From contig DATAIW010000252.1 in the NCBI GenBank assembly GCA_036262455.1, positions 1 through 41,809 on the forward strand: a stretch of DNA of 41,809 bases, in the 5' to 3' direction. Position 1 is the stretch's first letter, and the number at the start of each line of letters is the position of its first letter. The translations under genes were made by a program, and so were the position numbers. The notes under the pieces are model-generated. The model worked only from the letters and a program-made list of their open reading frames with translations, had not been told where the DNA came from and did no database searches. Of the stretch, positions 10,980 to 26,298 are shown piece by piece. This DNA comes from Candidatus Limnocylindrales bacterium. GTDB taxonomy: Bacteria > Chloroflexota > Limnocylindria > Limnocylindrales > CSP1-4.

Positions 10980-11927
10980 TCACTCCTGGACGATGTGGGT
11001 CCCGGCGGTGCCGCGGACCGCCTCGCGGAGGTGCGGCGGGTCGGTGATGACGGCTTCGCGGCCGCCGCGTTCGAGGTACCAGATGCAGGCCTCGATCTTG
11101 GGCGCCATGCTGCCGGCCGCGAAGTGGGTGCCCTCGGCGAGGTACTGCTTCGCCTCGGCCAGGGTCATCCTGTCCAGCCAGCGCTGCTCGGGCTTTCCGA
11201 AGTCGAGCGCGACCCGGTCCACCGCGGTGGCGATCACGAACAGGTCGGCCCCAAGCTCGCTCGCCAGGAGCGAGCTGGCGAAGTCCTTGTCGATCACGGC
11301 GGGCACGCCATGGAGGTTGCCCTGGGCATCGGTGGCGACCGGGATCCCGCCACCGCCGACCGTGATCACGATGAAGTCGGCTGCGGCGAGGGTCCGGACG
11401 GCTGGCAGCTCGACGATCCGCATGGGCTTCGGCGACGCGACGACGACGCGCTTGCCCCGTCCCGCGTCCTCGACGATCGTCGCGCCCTCGGCCTGGCGCC
11501 GGGCCGCCGTCTCGTCGTCGAGGAACGACCCGATCGGCTTCGAGGGCGCCGCGAAGGCCGGGTCGGCCAGGTCGACCTGCACCTGCGTCACCACGGTCAC
11601 GGCCTGCCGATCGAGCCCGAGCCGGGCGAAATCATGGCCGAGCGACTGCTGGAGCTCATAGCCGATCGCGCCCTGCGTGTCGGCGCCGCACACGTCGAGC
11701 GGCACCTCGTGGAGCTCGTGTGCGGCCAGCTCGGAACGGCGGAGGATGAACCCGACCTGCGGCCCGTTGCCGTGGCCGATGACCATGCGCCAGCCGTCCT
11801 CGACGAGCGCGGCCAGGTGATGGCTCGTCTCTTCAAGCGCGGCCATCTGATCGGGCACCGACTGGTGCTGCTTGTCCTTGATCAGCGCGTTGCCGCCGAT
11901 CGCCACGACCATGAGCGGGCTCGTCAT
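10980..11927 (-). CDS. arcC: Carbamate kinase
   Basis: VVAIGGNAL and the hallmark GHGNGPQVG motif. I chose the ATG at 11927 (MTSPLMVVAIGGNAL) because GGGGAGA lies 6 nt upstream. The track ORF begins at a GTG at 11945. Confidence 0.9.
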   Translation of the reverse strand: MTSPLMVVAIGGNALIKDKQHQSVPDQMAALEETSHHLAALVEDGWRMVIGHGNGPQVGFILRRSELAAHELHEVPLDVCGADTQGAIGYELQQSLGHDFARLGLDRQAVTVVTQVQVDLADPAFAAPSKPIGSFLDDETAARRQAEGATIVEDAGRGKRVVVASPKPMRIVELPAVRTLAAADFIVITVGGGGIPVATDAQGNLHGVPAVIDKDFASSLLASELGADLFVIATAVDRVALDFGKPEQRWLDRMTLAEAKQYLAEGTHFAAGSMAPKIEACIWYLERGGREAVITDPPHLREAVRGTAGTHIVQE

Positions 11928-11994
11928 CGCCATTCTCCCCGGCACGTCGGCCGGTCTGCTGCTGATGGTCCCTCGCCCTGGGCGGTTACCCGCC

Positions 11995-12972
11995 TCAGTG
12001 CATCGTGAGCGCCATCACGGCCTTCTGGACATGGAGCCGGTTCTCGGCTTCGTCGTACACGACCGAGTGCGGACCGTCGATGACCGCGTCGGTCACCTCG
12101 ACGTTCCGGTCGGCCGGGAGGGGATGCATGAAGATGGAGTCGTCCGCCGCGAGCGCCATTCGCCGTTCGTCGGTGATCCAGTCGGTGTACTGCGCGCCGA
12201 TCGTCGCGCCCTCCTCGTCGTTCTTGGCGACGAGGAGCGGACCCCAGCTCTTGGCGTAGATGACATCGGAGCCCGCGAAGCCGGCATCGAAGTCATCCAT
12301 CAGCTCGAGGCTGCCGCCCGACAGCCGGGCGTTCTCGGCGGCCTGGTCGACGTACTCCGGGACGAGTTTGTACTCGGGCGGATGGACCAGCCGGACGTTC
12401 ATGCCGAACCGGGTCGCGGCCAGGACGAGGTCGATCGGGACGCTCATCGGCTTCTGGTAGCTGGCCGCGTACGCCCAGCTGACGGTCAGCGTCCGGCCGC
12501 GGAGCTCGCCCTTCTTCTCCCGCATCGTCAGCAGGTCGGCGAGGATCTGGTGTGGATGGAAGAGGTCGCACTGCATGTTGAGGACGGGGACGCGACTGGC
12601 CGCGGCCACGTCGCGCATGTACTTGTTGCCGACGCCCCAGTCGACGTTTCGGATGGCAAGCCCGTCGTTGTAGCGACCGAGGATCTCGCCGATCTCGCGC
12701 GCCGTGTCACCGTGCGAGATCTGGGTCGTCCGGGATTCGATGAACTGGGCGTGCCCGCCAAGCTGTGCCATCCCCGCCTCGAACGACGCGCGGGTGCGCG
12801 TGCTCGAGAAGAAGAACAGCATCGCGAGGACCTTGTCCTCGAGGTACTTGTGCGGCCGCCCCAGGGCGCGGTCCAGCTTCAGGCGGGCCGCCACCTCGAG
12901 GATTGTCTCGACCTCCTCGGTCTTCCATTCCTGGAGCGAGATGAGGTCTCGGCCACGAAGGCCCGTCTGCAT
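11995..12972 (-). CDS. Carbamoyltransferase of the ornithine-carbamoyltransferase superfamily with a non-canonical second-substrate site (YgeW-role candidate)
   Basis: The carbamoyl-phosphate motifs SSTRTR and HPHQ are present. It reads DVIYAKSWG where OTCases have D-x-x-x-SMG, and HPLPA where they have HCLP. A GGAAGGAA RBS lies upstream. Confidence 0.85.
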   Translation of the reverse strand: MQTGLRGRDLISLQEWKTEEVETILEVAARLKLDRALGRPHKYLEDKVLAMLFFFSSTRTRASFEAGMAQLGGHAQFIESRTTQISHGDTAREIGEILGRYNDGLAIRNVDWGVGNKYMRDVAAASRVPVLNMQCDLFHPHQILADLLTMREKKGELRGRTLTVSWAYAASYQKPMSVPIDLVLAATRFGMNVRLVHPPEYKLVPEYVDQAAENARLSGGSLELMDDFDAGFAGSDVIYAKSWGPLLVAKNDEEGATIGAQYTDWITDERRMALAADDSIFMHPLPADRNVEVTDAVIDGPHSVVYDEAENRLHVQKAVMALTMH

Positions 12973-13005
12973 GGCCGTGTTCCTTCCGATTCGGGGTTCC
13001 GGGGG

Positions 13006-24409: not shown

Positions 24410-24589
24410 CGCGATGTTCGCCAGACACCCCCGTTCTCGGACGGCGCGATGCGTCCGAACTGAGGTCGACACGACGGCCCGTGAACGTGAAATCGAGCCG
24501 ACACGGGCGAATGGCCAAGCGCTATAGCGCCTGAGTCTGGATCAAGCGCGCTCGGCCATGAGGCCGTGATCTGTTCCCGCGATCGGGCG

Positions 24590-24827
24590 ACGGCGCCATC
24601 GGGACGGTGTCGTTCCTGAAACTCCTGCTGGAGGCAGACGCGGGGTCCAAACCGGGGCTGTCGCCGTTGCCTGGCGTCGGCGACTGGCCCACCCCGATGT
24701 CGGGCACGATCAGCTGGTCGTGCGGACCGTGGGCCACCCCGGTCTCGTCGGGCGCGCCGCCGCCGTCGGTCGCTCCGTAACGCATTCGGCCGGCCTTCAA
24801 CAGGCCGATCGGCCCCTCCCGTGCCAT
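24590..24827 (-). other. Possible unannotated small ORF or gene remnant inside the 609-bp gap
   Basis: By manual count, positions congruent to the third codon position of the minus frame are about 90% G/C from about 24590 to about 24900. The ORF has an ATG at 24827 (MAREGPIGLLKAGRMRYGATDGGGAPDETGVAHGPHDQLIVPDIG...). The signal decays 3' of about 24590. I recognise no family. Confidence 0.25.
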
Positions 24828-24921
24828 CGGTTTTCTGACACCCTCGCCCGAGGCGTCCCACAAGACCTCCCACGCCCGGCCTGTGAGCCGGGTGGGGCCA
24901 GCAGGCGAGGAGATCGATCGC

Positions 24922-26298
24922 ATGAACGCCGGGCAGCCTGAACGCGCCCTCTTCCACTGGACCCTCAAGCGCGAGGGGATCGTCGCGCCCGATGAGCGGT
25001 TGCCGTGGCCGCAGACCATCGCCCTCGGAGTCCAGCACATCTTCGCGATGTTCGGTGCGACGGTCCTCGCCCCGATCCTCATGGGCTTCGACCCGAATAC
25101 GGCCATCCTGTTCTCGGGGATCGGGACGCTGATCTTCTTCGTGATCGTCGGCGGACGGATCCCGAGCTATCTCGGGTCCAGCTTCTCGTTCATCGCCGTC
25201 GTCATCGCGGCGACCCAGTATTCCGGCTCCGGCGCCAACCCGAACCTCGGCGTCGCCCTCGGCGGGATCATCGCCGCGGGCGCGCTGTACGCCCTGATCG
25301 GCGTGATCGTCATGGCCGTCGGCTACCGCTGGATCGAGGTCCTGATGCCGCCGGTCGTGACCGGCGCCGTGGTGGCCGTCATCGGGCTCAACCTGGCCCC
25401 CGTCGCGATCAGCAATCTGGTGTCGAGCGACGCCGCCGCCCCGCAGAGCGTCAGCCAGTTCGCGACGTTCGTCGGCCTGCTGACGGTCGTCGCCGTCGGG
25501 ATCGTCGCGGTCCGGGTGCCCGGGCTATTCCGCCGCCTGCCGATCCTGCTGGGCGGGATCTTCGGCTATGTCGCCTACCTGGTCCTCGCCAACGGCCTCG
25601 GCTGGGGCAAGGCGATCGACTTCACCGCCCTGGGCAACGCGGCCTGGTTCGGCGCACCGAACCTGACCGCACCATCGTTCGAGCCGAGCGCCCTGACCCT
25701 GATCGCGCCGGTCGCGATCATCCTCGTCGCGGAGAACCTCGGCCACGTCAAGGCGGTGGCGGCGATGACCGGCCGCAACCTCGATCCGTACCTCGGGCGG
25801 GCGTTCCTCGGTGACGGCGTCGCGACGATGATCGCCGGCGCCGGCGGCGGGACGGGCGTGACGACCTACGCCGAGAACATCGGCGTGATGGCCGTCACGA
25901 AGATCTACTCGACTCTCGTGTTCGTGATCGCGGGCGTCGTCGCGATCGCGATGGGCTTCTCTCCGAAGTTCGGGGCGCTGATCGGGACGATCCCGGCGCC
26001 GGTTCTCGGCGGCCTGTCCATCGTCCTGTTCGGGATGATCGCGGCCACCGGCGCCCGGATCTGGATCCAGAACAAGGTCGACTTCTCGAACAATCGCAAC
26101 CTGATCACGGCCGCGGTCGCGCTCACGCTCGGCGCGGGCAACCTCGCGATCACGATCGGCGACTTCCAGCTCGGGGGGATCGGGACCGCGACGTTCGGCG
26201 CGATCATCGTCTACCAGCTGCTGCGCGAGCCGCGGTCGACCGTCTCGGTCGAGACGACCCCCTTGGTCGAGCCGACCGGCGCCGCGACGCCGGCCTGA
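24922..26298 (+). CDS. NCS2-family nucleobase permease (uracil/xanthine permease type)
   Basis: LGVQHIFAMFGATVLAPILMG, ENLGHV and TYAENIGVMAVT motifs typical of the UraA/RutG/PbuX family. About 12-14 TM segments. The ATG at 24922 has GAGGAG upstream. Confidence 0.9.
   Translation: MNAGQPERALFHWTLKREGIVAPDERLPWPQTIALGVQHIFAMFGATVLAPILMGFDPNTAILFSGIGTLIFFVIVGGRIPSYLGSSFSFIAVVIAATQYSGSGANPNLGVALGGIIAAGALYALIGVIVMAVGYRWIEVLMPPVVTGAVVAVIGLNLAPVAISNLVSSDAAAPQSVSQFATFVGLLTVVAVGIVAVRVPGLFRRLPILLGGIFGYVAYLVLANGLGWGKAIDFTALGNAAWFGAPNLTAPSFEPSALTLIAPVAIILVAENLGHVKAVAAMTGRNLDPYLGRAFLGDGVATMIAGAGGGTGVTTYAENIGVMAVTKIYSTLVFVIAGVVAIAMGFSPKFGALIGTIPAPVLGGLSIVLFGMIAATGARIWIQNKVDFSNNRNLITAAVALTLGAGNLAITIGDFQLGGIGTATFGAIIVYQLLREPRSTVSVETTPLVEPTGAATPA

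What the first reader, a model, noticed from the sequence alone, without database searches (positions are those of the whole stretch)
10980..26298. Rewired high-GC version of the ygeW/yqeA/ygfK/ssnA/xdhD purine (urate) degradation cluster
Seen in the sequence:
- An XdhD-architecture Mo-hydroxylase (2Fe-2S + Moco, no FAD domain), an SsnA-like amidohydrolase and a YgfK-like Fe-S flavoprotein are adjacent on the plus strand (17165-24312).
- An NCS2 nucleobase permease follows them.
- Diverging from them are carbamoyltransferases, a carbamate kinase and a BMP-type ABC importer.

Established knowledge, from memory:
- In E. coli, ygfK-ssnA-ygfM-xdhD lie with ygeW (carbamoyltransferase), ygeX (diaminopropionate ammonia-lyase), ygeY (M20 peptidase), hyuA (hydantoinase-like), yqeA (carbamate kinase) and xanthine/urate permeases.
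- Homologous clusters in gut anaerobes have been linked in recent work to anaerobic urate/purine breakdown.

Inference: this locus keeps the core triad, the carbamate kinase and the permease. I see no ygfM, hyuA, ygeY or ygeX equivalent. Instead it carries a second carbamoyltransferase, two different PLP enzymes, an aminotransferase and a transketolase-like enzyme. That points to a pathway variant with different downstream chemistry, in a lineage and lifestyle (F420 enzymes, uptake hydrogenase) unlike the gut anaerobes where the cluster was studied.
Basis: partly seen in the sequence, partly recalled or inferred. Interest (0 to 1): 0.75.

Follow-up and report, generated by a model that had tools for sequence, protein, structure and literature searches.

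The report
Soil-bacterial variant of reductive urate pathway
This is a real, widely conserved gene cluster in uncultured soil and freshwater bacteria that most likely breaks down uric acid by the recently solved "2,8-dioxopurine" route, with the later steps carried out by different enzymes that could yield two ATP per urate instead of one.

Summary
The window is a complete 41.8-kb contig of a Candidatus Limnocylindrales (Chloroflexota) MAG.

Plus strand: an Fe-S/Moco hydroxylase without an FAD domain (17165-19795), a 340-aa SsnA-like amidohydrolase (19821-20843) and YgfK (20902-24312).

Minus strand, divergent, as one tightly spaced gene string: two fold-type-II PLP enzymes, two carbamoyltransferases, a carbamate kinase, a BMP-type ABC importer, an aminotransferase, a transketolase-like enzyme and a LysR regulator.

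- The hydroxylase belongs to NCBIfam TIGR03311, not to the XdhD family (TIGR03313).
- The NCS2 permease is RutG/uracil-like, lies behind a 600-nt gap, and was never found beside related clusters.
- CT2 is a "pseudo-ATCase" lacking the aspartate-binding RxQ motif. CT1 is a compact YgeW relative.

The block recurs in dozens of Limnocylindria and Acidimicrobiia genomes. In sister loci CT1+CT2 alternate with YgeW-like+YgeY-like genes, and PLP2+PLP1 occupy the slot of a true diaminopropionate ammonia-lyase. Several sister clusters contain a D-hydantoinase; this contig does not.

Best reading: a phosphorolytic variant of the 2,8-dioxopurine pathway published in 2025. It is a new variant of a known kind, of moderate interest, and has not been tested biochemically.

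The parts
1277..2245 (-). LysR-family regulator; last gene of the minus-strand string
   Evidence: Pfam HTH_1 and LysR_substrate. The order ABC ATPase - aminotransferase - TK-like - LysR is repeated in L164. A 75-77% identical LysR gene follows ygfK in L003 and L021.
2296..4677 (-). Transketolase-superfamily ThDP enzyme (793 aa) of unknown specificity; co-operonic
   Evidence: Transketolase_N 63.6 bits and Transket_pyr 30.5 bits; all NCBIfam transketolase and DXS models score far below their cut-offs. PDB hits are transketolases at E about 1e-20 over the N-terminal domain only. Its start overlaps the end of the aminotransferase gene by 4 nt. The TK-like + aminotransferase pair lies beside CK and the XDH-SsnA-YgfK genes in L039 and L065.
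4674..5942 (-). Class I/II (AspAT-like) aminotransferase
   Evidence: Aminotran_1_2 242 bits. All NCBIfam equivalogs score below their cut-offs.
5985..7622 (-). ABC importer ATPase with two ABC_tran domains
   Evidence: Pfam. Found next to the hydroxylase gene in 9 of 13 Acidimicrobiia-type loci.
7648..8706 (-). BMP/PnrA-like substrate-binding protein
   Evidence: PF02608 135 bits.
8795..9730 (-). ABC permease 1 (start approximate)
   Evidence: BPD_transp_2. The mechanical ORF 8795-10186 runs into the upstream permease gene.
9721..10872 (-). ABC permease 2
   Evidence: BPD_transp_2 153 bits. An 87-88% identical gene lies next to CK in the closest relatives L004 and L020.
10980..11945 (-). Carbamate kinase (YqeA equivalent)
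   Evidence: NF009007 381 bits against a cut-off of 266. It is 47% identical to E. coli YqeA over the full length.
11995..12972 (-). CT1: compact carbamoyltransferase related to YgeW and AOTCase; proposed diureidopropionate carbamoyltransferase
   Evidence: 34% identical to YgeW over the full length. It shares the YgeW-type motifs SYQKPMSVP and KSWGP rather than the OTCase DxxxSMG motif, but lacks the YgeW insertions and has HPLP. It scores below every NCBIfam cut-off. Deposited as 'ornithine carbamoyltransferase', HEX2755366.
13006..13959 (-). CT2: pseudo-ATCase; proposed phosphorolysis of the second ureido group (replacing YgeY)
   Evidence: STRT, HPTQ, R105 and R167 are kept. It has HSLP instead of HPLP, and the ATCase TRxQxER segment (R229, Q231) and K84 are not conserved. 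This matches the pseudo-ATCase motif table of PMC4016543. All 44 CT2-anchored contigs of at least 6 kb carry other pathway genes.
13956..15353 (-). PLP1: threonine-synthase-like fold-type-II PLP enzyme (465 aa)
   Evidence: PALP 120 bits. Best PDB sequence hits are threonine synthases. It has the SHK PLP-lysine motif and an N-terminal Cys-rich segment. Its ATG overlaps the PLP2 stop codon (ATGA). The 465-aa form equals HEX2755368.
15350..16849 (-). PLP2: CysK/CBS-like fold-type-II PLP enzyme with a C-terminal extension of about 100 aa; proposed beta-eliminating lyase replacing YgeX
   Evidence: PALP. AF2 model pLDDT 86.5; the Foldseek top 50 are all O-acetylserine sulfhydrylase, CBS or beta-cyanoalanine synthase, with TM(target) 0.70-0.81. 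Lys112 aligns with the YgeX PLP lysine Lys77. It alternates with YgeX-like genes in related loci.
16850..17164 (.). Divergent intergenic (promoter) region between the two gene strings
   Evidence: Gene coordinates. No Rfam match.
17165..19795 (+). Fe-S/Moco hydroxylase of family TIGR03311, with no FAD domain; proposed urate <-> 2,8-dioxopurine oxidoreductase
   Evidence: TIGR03311 967 bits against a cut-off of 830; TIGR03313 220 bits against 1102. It retains the GGGFGGKE, FRGFG and GAGE motifs, which correspond to XOR Glu802, Arg880 and Glu1261 (residue roles from memory).
19821..20843 (+). Short (340-aa) SsnA-clade amidohydrolase; proposed ring-opening hydrolase coupled to YgfK
   Evidence: The best NCBIfam hit is SsnA (262 bits, below the cut-off of 444), covering model positions 52-340. 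It is 32% identical to E. coli SsnA and 42-50% to full-length (about 440-aa) SsnA representatives. The metal-ligand motifs HHH, HIHVCE, AHCVH and GTDG are visible in the sequence. The 340-aa form is 78-92% conserved in more than 580 species-representative genomes.
20902..24312 (+). YgfK (2,8-dioxopurine reductase type Fe-S flavoprotein)
   Evidence: TIGR03315 850 bits against a cut-off of 835. It is 36% identical to E. coli YgfK over residues 1-978. HEX2755372.
24922..26298 (+). NCS2 permease, RutG/uracil-type; doubtful member of the cluster
   Evidence: RutG model 619 bits (cut-off 759) and pbuX 196 bits. It is 28% identical to UacT. It is preceded by a 600-nt gap and was not found beside any related locus.

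Best explanation
The locus encodes a free-living-bacterium variant of the reductive (2,8-dioxopurine) uric-acid degradation pathway.

Front end (gene homology shown here, activities inferred). The TIGR03311-type Fe-S/Moco enzyme removes the 6-oxo group of urate to give 2,8-dioxopurine. YgfK reduces the pyrimidine ring. The short SsnA opens the ring hydrolytically.

Hydantoinase step. A D-hydantoinase, not encoded on this contig, is still needed to produce 2,3-diureidopropionate. It is presumably encoded elsewhere in the genome, as it is within the cluster in sister genomes.

Back end (inferred from motifs and from gene-slot alternation in related loci). Both ureido groups are removed by phosphorolysis rather than one by phosphorolysis and one by hydrolysis. 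CT1, a compact YgeW relative, and CT2, a pseudo-ATCase, each release carbamoyl phosphate. The carbamate kinase converts this to ATP, so up to two ATP are gained per urate instead of one. The resulting 2,3-diaminopropionate, or a mono-ureido alanine, is converted to pyruvate plus ammonia by beta-elimination. This step is carried out by the CysK-like PLP2, assisted by the ThrC-like PLP1, in place of the diaminopropionate ammonia-lyase YgeX.

Other genes. The BMP-type ABC transporter imports the purine substrate. The co-operonic aminotransferase and transketolase-like enzyme act on the C3 product in a way that is still unknown. The LysR protein is the likely regulator.
For: Front end:
- YgfK passes its equivalog cut-off (850 against 835 bits), and the hydroxylase passes TIGR03311 (967 against 830 bits).
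- The amidohydrolase's best family is SsnA. It is 42-50% identical to full-length SsnA representatives.
- The three genes are separated by 25 and 58 nt.
- The hydroxylase-SsnA adjacency recurs in 37 of 50 loci, and YgfK is present in 39 of 50.
- The hydroxylase keeps the purine-binding Glu/Arg/Glu motifs.

Purine context in sister loci:
- Conventional FAD-containing XDH genes follow ygfK in about 18 loci.
- Guanine-deaminase-like genes precede the hydroxylase gene in L039 and L065.

Published biochemistry. The roles of XdhD/DOPDH, YgfK, SsnA, HyuA, YgeW+YqeA, YgeY and YgeX were established in PMC12507026 and in bioRxiv 10.1101/2025.04.24.650524.

Back end:
- CT1 shares YgeW-specific motifs.
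- CT2 keeps the carbamoyl-phosphate site but lacks the aspartate-binding RxQ motif and K84. It fits the pseudo-ATCase class, one member of which phosphorolyses the diureido acid allantoate next to a carbamate kinase (PMC4016543).
- In L010, L029 and L052, YgeW-like plus YgeY-like genes occupy the CT1+CT2 slot beside the same PLP genes. None of the 18 loci with CT1+CT2 has YgeY or YgeX.
- In L159 a YgeX-like gene (39% identical to E. coli YgeX) sits directly before CT2-CT1-CK, where PLP2-PLP1 sit elsewhere. A YgeX-like gene from L054 passes the diaminopropionate ammonia-lyase model.
- In Acidimicrobiia, PLP2 and YgeX-like genes alternate after ygfK.
- PLP2 has the fold of beta-substituted-alanine lyases and synthases.
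- All 44 CT2-anchored metagenome contigs of at least 6 kb carry other pathway genes.
- Two ureido-cleaving transferases fit a diureido intermediate, which arises from a purine but not from a pyrimidine (inference).

Operon structure. The minus-strand genes from PLP2 to LysR are separated by between -4 and 107 nt.
Against: - No enzyme activity has been measured for any protein of this clade.
- No hydantoinase/HyuA gene is on the contig, so one ring-opening step is unaccounted for here.
- The short SsnA lacks about 55 N-terminal residues and scores below the curated SsnA cut-offs.
- CT1 scores below the YgeW cut-offs and has HPHQ/HPLP rather than the published YgeW-type motifs.
- PLP1 and PLP2 show only weak profile similarity to YgeX (hhalign probability 80% and 29%, on shallow alignments). 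No PDB diaminopropionate ammonia-lyase is among the top 50 Foldseek hits for PLP2.
- At the position aligned with XdhD Glu606, proposed to orient urate, the window enzyme has Pro. The alignment there lies in a loop and is uncertain.
- No YgfM-type FAD subunit and no selD, yqeB or yqeC gene is on the contig, so the electron donor and cofactor maturation are unknown.
- The only nucleobase permease is uracil/RutG-like.
- The lineage is thought to be aerobic (from memory), whereas the characterised pathway enzymes were handled anaerobically.
Confidence: 0.6

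Rival explanations
1. The front end is the same purine pathway, but the two carbamoyltransferases do not both act on diureidopropionate. CT2 would be a ureidoglycine-type carbamoyltransferase acting on allantoate or another ureido acid, so the locus would merge two different ureide routes. Alternatively only one ureido group is phosphorolysed, and a PLP enzyme eliminates the other as urea or carbamate from ureido-alanine.
For: The one characterised pseudo-ATCase (Rxyl_2847) phosphorolyses allantoate beside a carbamate kinase in a purine cluster. CysK-type enzymes eliminate beta-leaving groups, and albizziin is a beta-ureido-alanine (chemistry from general knowledge). In 15 of 44 CT2-anchored contigs, CT2 is followed directly by the hydroxylase gene rather than by CT1.
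Against: No uricase, HIU hydrolase, OHCU decarboxylase or allantoinase was seen on the contig. The HyuA-like gene of sister locus L069 scores as a dihydropyrimidinase/D-hydantoinase (555 bits against a cut-off of 393), not as an allantoinase (249 bits against 358). The slot exchange of CT1+CT2 with YgeW-like+YgeY-like genes argues that the pair covers exactly those two steps. CT1-like genes are found further downstream in some contigs that lack an adjacent CT1 (L109, L111, L146).
Confidence: 0.15
2. The cluster degrades a different N-heterocycle, such as a pyrimidine (uracil, thymine, orotate) or another oxopurine, by a Pyd-like route of reduce, hydrolyse and decarbamoylate. The Mo enzyme would prepare that substrate.
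For: YgfK and SsnA are mechanistic analogues of PydA and PydB (PMC12507026). The adjacent NCS2 permease is RutG/uracil-like. CT2 derives from ATCase, whose product N-carbamoyl-aspartate is a pyrimidine-pathway ureido acid.
Against: YgfK and the hydroxylase pass the equivalog cut-offs of the purine-cluster families. Sister loci carry guanine deaminase and conventional XDH genes. CT2 has lost the residues that bind the aspartate beta-carboxylate. Two carbamoyltransferases fit a diureido (purine-derived) intermediate. The permease is not conserved with the cluster.
Confidence: 0.1
3. The deposited annotation is right. CT1 is the arginine-pathway ornithine carbamoyltransferase, CT2 is housekeeping PyrB, the PLP enzymes are cysteine and threonine synthases, and they merely lie next to a purine operon.
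For: CT2 narrowly passes the ATCase model TIGR00670 (245.5 bits against 236.95). CT1's top NCBIfam hits are AOTCase and OTCase. The source annotations are 'aspartate carbamoyltransferase' and 'ornithine carbamoyltransferase'.
Against: CT1 scores below every OTCase and AOTCase cut-off and lacks the OTCase DxxxSMG and HCLP motifs. CT2 lacks RxQ and K84. PLP1 and PLP2 score 72 and 77 bits against cut-offs of 303 and 351. The five genes travel with the hydroxylase and SsnA genes across two phyla and in 44 of 44 CT2-anchored contigs. None of these loci shows pyrC, carAB or arg genes among the tested neighbours.
Confidence: 0.05

Closest known systems
E. coli ygeW-ygeX-ygeY-hyuA-yqeA ... ygfK-ssnA-ygfM-xdhD reductive urate cluster (PMC12507026)
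   Same: YgfK (36% identical, full length), SsnA (32%), a carbamate kinase (47% to YqeA) and a YgeW-related carbamoyltransferase (34%) are present. An Fe-S/Moco hydroxylase lies adjacent to ssnA and ygfK. The overall logic is the same: dehydroxylate, reduce, open the rings, remove two ureido groups, deaminate the C3 unit.
   Different: The hydroxylase is not an XdhD orthologue (26% identical; TIGR03313 220 bits against a cut-off of 1102), and there is no YgfM FAD subunit. The contig has no HyuA, YgeY, YgeX, YqeB, YqeC or MocA. SsnA lacks about 55 N-terminal residues. A pseudo-ATCase and two non-DAPAL PLP enzymes are present instead. An ABC importer replaces the XanQ/UacT-type permeases.
Clostridium sporogenes 2,8-dioxopurine pathway with selenium-dependent DOPDH (XdhAC) and DOPOR (YgfK) (bioRxiv 10.1101/2025.04.24.650524)
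   Same: The hydroxylase is a single polypeptide with Fe-S and Moco domains and no FAD domain. It has about the same size as the clostridial enzyme (whose Mo domain is cited as residues 307-839). YgfK follows it, and the pathway is coupled to ATP through a carbamoyltransferase plus carbamate kinase.
   Different: That both belong to TIGR03311 is my inference. Selenium dependence cannot be tested, since no selD, yqeB or yqeC gene is on the contig. The published survey found the pathway enriched in host-associated Bacillota, whereas this clade is environmental.
Chloroflexota variant noted in the SsnA sequence-similarity network of PMC12507026 (F420-type luciferase-like reductase instead of YgfK/UacX)
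   Same: The phylum is the same, and the companions are the same. L159 and L109 have XDH-SsnA-luciferase-like oxidoreductase with CT2, CT1, CK and the PLP genes. That paper's Pfam-level neighbourhood colouring (PF00185, PF00291) would count CT1/CT2 and PLP1/PLP2 as 'YgeW' and 'YgeX'.
   Different: The window keeps a bona fide YgfK and has the truncated 340-aa SsnA. The paper does not describe the double carbamoyltransferase, the pseudo-ATCase, or the CysK- and ThrC-like enzymes.
Pseudo-ATCases, including the ureidoglycine carbamoyltransferase of Rubrobacter xylanophilus and the Nocardioides sp. JS614 cluster (PMC4016543)
   Same: CT2 shows the class motifs: STRT and HPTQ are kept, H[ST]LP is present, and RxQ is absent. 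It is adjacent to a carbamate kinase and purine genes. The Nocardioides arrangement (pseudo-ATCase + YgeW homologue + xdhABC + hyuA) mirrors L069 and L093.
   Different: The Rubrobacter enzyme works on allantoate in an oxidative (uricase) route. No substrate is known for the Nocardioides-type subgroup. CT2's residues at the RxQ position depend on the alignment, so its subgroup is undecided.
Arginine deiminase pathway (catabolic OTCase + carbamate kinase)
   Same: A ureido group is phosphorolysed to carbamoyl phosphate, and ATP is then formed by carbamate kinase. The same analogy is drawn.
   Different: The substrate is different. Here two transferases are proposed to feed one kinase.

Membership tests
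2,8-dioxopurine / reductive urate degradation gene cluster | YgfK-type 2,8-dioxopurine reductase (NCBIfam TIGR03315) | tested here: met
   850.1 bits against a cut-off of 835.3. 36% identical to E. coli YgfK over residues 1-978.
2,8-dioxopurine / reductive urate degradation gene cluster | SsnA amidohydrolase adjacent to the reductase | tested here: inconclusive
   The best family hit is SsnA, but below the cut-offs (262 against 444 bits; 246 against 455.5), because about 55 N-terminal residues and some C-terminal model positions are missing. It is 42-50% identical to full-length SsnA-length representatives. It lies adjacent to ygfK.
2,8-dioxopurine / reductive urate degradation gene cluster | Mo-hydroxylase that converts urate to 2,8-dioxopurine (XdhD-YgfM or DOPDH) | not testable with these tools
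   A homologue of family TIGR03311 is present and adjacent. Its regiospecificity can only be shown by an enzyme assay.
2,8-dioxopurine / reductive urate degradation gene cluster | D-hydantoinase HyuA | tested here: not met
   No hit on the contig at E <= 0.01. It is present inside sister clusters L069 and L093 and in 9 of 44 CT2-anchored contigs.
2,8-dioxopurine / reductive urate degradation gene cluster | YgeW carbamoyltransferase plus carbamate kinase | tested here: inconclusive
   Carbamate kinase is met (381 bits against 266). CT1 is only YgeW-like (186 bits against a cut-off of 453; 34% identical; shared motifs).
2,8-dioxopurine / reductive urate degradation gene cluster | YgeY M20 hydrolase and YgeX diaminopropionate ammonia-lyase | tested here: not met
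   No homologues on the contig. Functional substitutes are proposed from slot alternation.
XdhD family (NCBIfam TIGR03313) | Score at or above the curated cut-off | tested here: not met
   219.9 bits against a cut-off of 1101.9. 26% identical to XdhD, no closer than to XdhA at 28%.
Selenium-dependent xanthine dehydrogenase family (NCBIfam TIGR03311) | Score at or above the curated cut-off | tested here: met
   967.5 bits against a cut-off of 830.45, covering model positions 3-845 of 848.
Selenium-dependent xanthine dehydrogenase family (NCBIfam TIGR03311) | Selenium cofactor trait (selD, yqeB, yqeC) in the genome | not testable with these tools
   None on this contig, and the rest of the genome could not be searched. 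YqeC-like genes flank the triad in several Acidimicrobiia loci.
Authentic aspartate carbamoyltransferase (PyrB) | Aspartate-binding RxQ motif (R229, Q231) and K84 | tested here: not met
   The E. coli TRVQKER and P. abyssi/human/Arabidopsis TRIQKERF segments align with MEPVVQADYTASREER in CT2, and the K84 region differs. TIGR00670 is passed only narrowly (245.5 bits against 236.95).
Pseudo-ATCase (PMC4016543, Table 1) | STRT and HPTQ retained; H[ST]LP in place of HP[LG]P; no RxQ; purine or ureide gene context with a carbamate kinase | tested here: met
   STRT, HPTQ and HSLP are present and RxQ is absent. The neighbours are CK, CT1, XDH and SsnA.
Diaminopropionate ammonia-lyase (NF006058 / TIGR03528) | Family HMM match for PLP1 or PLP2 | tested here: not met
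   Neither protein lists these models. BLASTP against YgeX finds nothing at 1e-3. hhalign gives probability 80% (PLP1) and 29% (PLP2) on shallow alignments. Foldseek places PLP2 with CysK and CBS.

The most novel reading that the evidence does not exclude
A fully phosphorolytic version of the reductive urate pathway exists in abundant, probably aerobic soil, freshwater and marine Chloroflexota (Limnocylindria) and Acidimicrobiia. In it a YgeW-like enzyme and a pseudo-ATCase each convert one ureido group of 2,3-diureidopropionate into carbamoyl phosphate, giving two ATP per urate. A previously uncharacterised CysK-like/ThrC-like PLP pair replaces diaminopropionate ammonia-lyase. A new transketolase-like enzyme plus an aminotransferase channels the C3 product. 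This would assign a function to the Nocardioides-type pseudo-ATCases, which have been orphan since 2013, and would extend a pathway regarded as gut-anaerobe-specific to free-living environmental bacteria.
Probability: 0.35. Interest if true: 0.65.

Novelty: new variant of a known kind. Interest (0 to 1): 0.5.

Why it matters
The 2,8-dioxopurine pathway was solved only in 2025. It has been presented as an anaerobic trait enriched in host-associated bacteria.

The same front end appears here in more than 580 species-level genomes of uncultured environmental Chloroflexota and Actinomycetota, with a rewired back end. If the reading is right, several things follow:
- Reductive purine breakdown would be a significant route of purine-nitrogen turnover in soils and waters.
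- A concrete substrate could be proposed for an orphan carbamoyltransferase class, the pseudo-ATCases, and for two unannotated PLP enzyme families.
- Enzyme parts with a higher ATP yield might become available for engineered uricolytic strains.
- Public annotations that currently call these genes ornithine carbamoyltransferase, aspartate carbamoyltransferase and cysteine synthase could be corrected.

Tried and rejected
- A frameshift or pseudogene in ssnA. I considered this because the HMM match stops at model position 340 and the mechanical ORF overlaps both neighbouring genes. I rejected it because the 340-aa form starting at 19821 is the conserved length in 100+ clusters and 80 genomes.
- A riboswitch or other RNA in the 600-nt gap before the permease gene or elsewhere. 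Rfam at gathering thresholds on the whole window and at E <= 1 on 24300-24930 gave only a chance miRNA hit.
- Consensus promoter and terminator scans were uninformative at 70% GC.
- A hidden hydantoinase domain in the N- or C-terminal extensions of PLP1 or PLP2. Rejected: PLP1's N-terminus is a threonine-synthase-like Cys-rich segment, and PLP2's extension is an all-helical region of about 100 aa.
- PLP enzymes as replacements for HyuA. Rejected because HyuA-like genes co-occur with PLP2-PLP1-CT2 in 9 contigs.
- XdhD Glu606 as a marker for urate orientation. The aligned residue is Pro, but it lies in a gapped loop, so the result is inconclusive.
- Exact look-ups of the window's own SsnA and PLP2 in the contig index found nothing. 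The source contig was identified through the protein cluster tables instead.
- Shallow profile-profile comparison of PLP1 and PLP2 with YgeX did not discriminate.
- PDB sequence searches found no solved structure of an SsnA, YgfK or DOPDH orthologue.

Full report
**1. What is there**

The window is about 70% G+C, so mechanical ORF lists are full of spurious frames. I called genes by third-position GC and confirmed them with Pfam and NCBIfam. For six proteins (TK-like, CT1, CT2, PLP1, PLP2 and YgfK) my sequences are identical to deposited records. The carbamate kinase and the aminotransferase as I called them were not found.

PLP2 is 100% identical to a protein on a 41,809-bp contig of a "Candidatus Limnocylindrales bacterium" MAG. 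The window is therefore that whole contig. TK-like, CT1, CT2, PLP1, PLP2 and YgfK correspond to HEX2755359, HEX2755366-369 and HEX2755372. The lineage is Chloroflexota, class Candidatus Limnocylindria.

Plus strand:
- Fe-S/Moco hydroxylase 17165-19795.
- A 340-aa SsnA-like amidohydrolase 19821-20843.
- YgfK 20902-24312.
- After a 600-nt non-coding gap, an NCS2 permease at about 24922-26298.

Minus strand, with spacings between -4 and 107 nt, which is compatible with one operon:
- PLP2 15350-16849.
- PLP1 13956-15353. Its ATG overlaps the PLP2 stop codon.
- CT2 13006-13959.
- CT1 11995-12972.
- Carbamate kinase 10980-11945.
- Two permeases, a BMP-type binding protein and an ATPase, 5985-10872.
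- An aminotransferase 4674-5942.
- A transketolase-like protein 2296-4677.
- A LysR regulator 1277-2245.

**2. Identity of the front-end triad**

YgfK passes its equivalog cut-off (TIGR03315, 850 against 835 bits) and is 36% identical to E. coli YgfK end to end.

The hydroxylase has the XdhD-like architecture (2Fe-2S domains plus Moco, no FAD domain), but it is not an XdhD orthologue:
- It scores 967 bits on TIGR03311 ("selenium-dependent xanthine dehydrogenase", cut-off 830) and 220 bits on the XdhD model TIGR03313 (cut-off 1102).
- It is 26% identical to XdhD and 28% to XdhA.
- It is not an aldehyde oxidoreductase either. That NCBIfam model scores 451 bits against a cut-off of 1100, although Desulfovibrio MOP is the nearest solved structure.
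- It keeps the motifs GGGFGGKE, FRGFG and GAGE. From memory, these hold the purine-binding Glu802 and Arg880 and the catalytic Glu1261 of bovine xanthine oxidoreductase.

The amidohydrolase's best family is SsnA, but it scores below the cut-offs (262 against 444 bits). It starts right at the HxH metal motif and so lacks about 55 N-terminal residues. This is not a pseudogene, for three reasons:
- The 340-aa form is 78-92% identical in more than 100 protein clusters and in at least 580 species-representative genomes.
- In a library clustered at 50% identity, its nearest full-length neighbours are SsnA-sized proteins of about 440 aa at 42-50% identity, aligned from their residue 55 or so onward.
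- The metal-ligand motifs are intact.

**3. What is already known**

The pathway encoded by the E. coli and clostridial clusters was solved in 2025. The steps are:
- Urate is reduced to 2,8-dioxopurine ("yanthine") by XdhD-YgfM, or by the selenium-dependent, FAD-less DOPDH.
- YgfK reduces the ring.
- SsnA opens it, giving ureidomethyl-hydantoin.
- HyuA gives 2,3-diureidopropionate.
- YgeW phosphorolyses one ureido group. Carbamoyl phosphate then yields ATP through YqeA.
- YgeY hydrolyses the other ureido group.
- YgeX converts 2,3-diaminopropionate to pyruvate and ammonia.

These roles come from PMC12507026 and bioRxiv 10.1101/2025.04.24.650524. The two groups disagree on which ureido group YgeW attacks.

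The first paper notes SsnA in Chloroflexota and Actinomycetota, and a Chloroflexota variant with an F420-type reductase. The second reports enrichment of the genes in host-associated Bacillota. No paper in the library describes the variant found here.

**4. Conservation**

Anchoring on the short SsnA in one genome per species gave 80 loci. I mapped the window's proteins and the E. coli proteins onto them.

Of 50 loci with full 10-kb flanks:
- 37 have a TIGR03311-type hydroxylase gene upstream of ssnA.
- 39 have ygfK.

Of the 24 with a Limnocylindria-type hydroxylase (at least 60% identical):
- 19 have YgfK.
- 18 have CT1, 17 have CT2, 18 have PLP1 and 18 have PLP2.
- 12 have CK. CK lies at the edge of the flank, so this is an undercount.

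Acidimicrobiia-type loci have the ABC importer directly beside the hydroxylase gene (9 of 13). They often have PLP2-CK-CT2 after ygfK. Others have an XdhD-like gene with YgfM, YqeB and YqeC.

Neither the NCS2 permease nor the [NiFe] hydrogenase that follows it was found in any related locus. I do not count them as part of the system.

The transketolase-like and aminotransferase pair recurs in the same order in L164. In L039 and L065 it lies directly beside CK and the hydroxylase-SsnA-YgfK genes.

Sister loci add a purine context:
- A guanine-deaminase-like gene (TIGR02967 325 bits, just below its 375-bit cut-off; 33% identical to E. coli GuaD) and a second GuaD-related amidohydrolase precede the hydroxylase gene.
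- A conventional FAD-containing XDH follows ygfK in about 18 loci.

**5. The back end**

CT1 is annotated as ornithine carbamoyltransferase but fails every OTCase and AOTCase cut-off. Aligned with ArgI and YgeW, it shares YgeW-type segments:
- WAYAASYQKPMSVP, against YgeW WAYSPSYGKPLSVP.
- YAKSWGP, against YPKSWAP.
- These stand in place of the OTCase DxxxSMG loop.

CT1 lacks the YgeW insertions and has HPLP.

CT2 is annotated as aspartate carbamoyltransferase and passes TIGR00670 only narrowly. It keeps the carbamoyl-phosphate site (STRTR, R105, HPTQ) and R167. The universal ATCase segment TR(V/I)QKER, which holds R229 and Q231, and K84 are not conserved. HPLP has become HSLP.

This is the signature of the "pseudo-ATCases" defined by Barba et al. 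(PMC4016543):
- One of them phosphorolyses allantoate, which is a diureido acid, next to a carbamate kinase in Rubrobacter.
- Another, in Nocardioides sp. JS614, sits beside a YgeW homologue, xdhABC and hyuA. That arrangement is the one I see in L069 and L093.

A second scan, anchored on CT2 in metagenome contigs, showed that the family is dedicated to this context:
- All 44 contigs of at least 6 kb carry other pathway genes.
- The immediate neighbours of CT2 are PLP1 (27), CT1 (24), the hydroxylase gene (19) and, once, a YgeX-like gene.

Three alternations point to function:
- In L010, L029 and L052, YgeW-like (47-49% identical to E. coli YgeW) and YgeY-like genes occupy the CT1+CT2 slot beside the same PLP genes. 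None of the 18 loci with CT1+CT2 has YgeY or YgeX.
- In L159 the order is hydroxylase, SsnA, luciferase-like oxidoreductase, YgeX-like, CT2, CT1, CK. YgeX thus stands where PLP2-PLP1 stand elsewhere, and the CT pair coexists with YgeX but without YgeY.
- In Acidimicrobiia, PLP2 (without PLP1) and YgeX-like genes alternate after ygfK. One of these YgeX-like genes (L054) passes the diaminopropionate ammonia-lyase model, 334 bits against 276.

I therefore infer three things:
- CT1+CT2 cover the two ureido-cleaving steps. CT2 takes the place of the hydrolase YgeY. Loss of the arginine that binds the aspartate beta-carboxylate is at least compatible with a beta-amino or beta-ureido substituent.
- One kinase harvests both carbamoyl phosphates.
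- PLP2, with PLP1 as a lineage-specific partner, takes the place of YgeX.

On the two PLP enzymes:
- PLP2 folds confidently (pLDDT 86.5). Its 50 best structural matches are all O-acetylserine sulfhydrylases, cystathionine beta-synthases or beta-cyanoalanine synthases. These enzymes form aminoacrylate from beta-substituted alanines.
- PLP2's Lys112 aligns with the YgeX PLP lysine.
- PLP1 is threonine-synthase-like.
- Neither is a diaminopropionate ammonia-lyase by sequence.

**6. What is missing or uncertain**

- No hydantoinase is on the contig. It is not replaced by the PLP enzymes, because HyuA-like genes co-occur with PLP2-PLP1-CT2 in 9 of the CT2-anchored contigs. In L069 and L093 a HyuA-like gene sits between the conventional XDH and the TIGR03311 enzyme; the L069 gene scores as a D-hydantoinase (TIGR02033, 555 bits against 393). 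Most likely the gene lies elsewhere in this genome, but I could not search the rest of the MAG.
- The electron donor of the FAD-less hydroxylase, its selenium dependence and the oxygen relations of the pathway in this lineage are unknown.
- The roles of the aminotransferase and the transketolase-like protein are unknown. The latter is only distantly related to transketolases.

**7. Verdict**

The finding is real and the core interpretation is right. Several details need correction:
- The hydroxylase is not XdhD.
- The permease is not part of the conserved unit and is uracil-type.
- Functional equivalents of YgeY and YgeX are probably present.
- HyuA belongs to the conserved neighbourhood in relatives.
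- F420 enzymes are not evident in this window.

Relative to the 2025 papers, this is a new variant of a known pathway. The most interesting element is the proposed double phosphorolysis by a YgeW-like enzyme and a pseudo-ATCase, with new PLP lyases, in a very widespread environmental clade. All functional assignments beyond homology are inference.

Noticed in passing
window 19821-20843; loci L003-L082: The short SsnA is unusually conserved across phyla. It is 78-92% identical between Limnocylindria (Chloroflexota) and Acidimicrobiia (Actinomycetota) genomes, while the adjacent hydroxylase is only about 50% identical and YgfK about 60-67%. This suggests either very strong constraint or lateral transfer of ssnA. 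Some hits sit in MAGs labelled Gammaproteobacteria, Gemmatimonadales, Kiloniellales or Acidobacteria, which may be binning errors.
   Followed up: no
L024 8853-9860 (-); L032 7256-8497 (-); L159 7714-8733 (+); L109 15037-16038 (+): Luciferase-like oxidoreductases lie next to SsnA genes; the L024 one matches the F420-dependent family TIGR03842 (411 bits against 295), the others were scanned with Pfam only (PF00296). In L159 and L109 the gene follows a full-length-type SsnA where ygfK would be, as published. In L024 it sits divergently upstream of short SsnA + YgfK, where the Mo-hydroxylase gene would be, which hints at a second kind of substitution.
   Followed up: partly
window 24313-24921: A 600-nt stretch between ygfK and the NCS2 permease gene has no convincing ORF. 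It has no Rfam match, apart from a chance miRNA hit at E 0.8.
   Followed up: partly
window 26474-31103: A membrane-bound uptake-type [NiFe] hydrogenase lies directly downstream: a small subunit with a TAT signal, a large subunit, cytochrome b and a HypA-like gene. It was not found beside any related urate-type locus, so it is probably an independent unit.
   Followed up: partly
window 15350-16849, PLP2 residues about 400-499: A conserved, confidently modelled all-helical C-terminal extension of about 100 residues has no counterpart in the CysK/CBS structures (TM normalised to the query about 0.5, against about 0.8 normalised to the targets). Its function is unknown.
   Followed up: no
window 2296-5942; L039 1-2977; L065 1-3191; L164 2048-5610: A 793-aa transketolase-superfamily protein and an AspAT-like aminotransferase form a conserved, translationally coupled pair that travels with the urate-type cluster in at least three arrangements. 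Neither reaches any curated family cut-off.
   Followed up: partly
P0004 (506 aa); window ORF 19626-20843: At this GC content the long ORF upstream of ssnA overlaps the 3' end of the hydroxylase gene. At least one public gene call fuses a MoCoBD_2 fragment to the amidohydrolase (PF20256 + PF01979), which is probably an annotation artefact.
   Followed up: no
L002 3756-6953: A 2.7-Mb contig with an Acidimicrobiia-type version of the locus (hydroxylase 49% identical) carries three carbamoyltransferase genes (CT2-like 69%, CT1-like 68%, and a third at 38% to CT2) plus a GntR regulator beside the hydroxylase and SsnA genes, with no adjacent ygfK.
   Followed up: no
window 40236-40697: The only candidate F420/FMN-type enzyme in the window is a small PPOX-class protein, well below family thresholds (TIGR03618 29.6 bits against 79; PNPOx_N 21.7 bits against 28.1).
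   Followed up: yes
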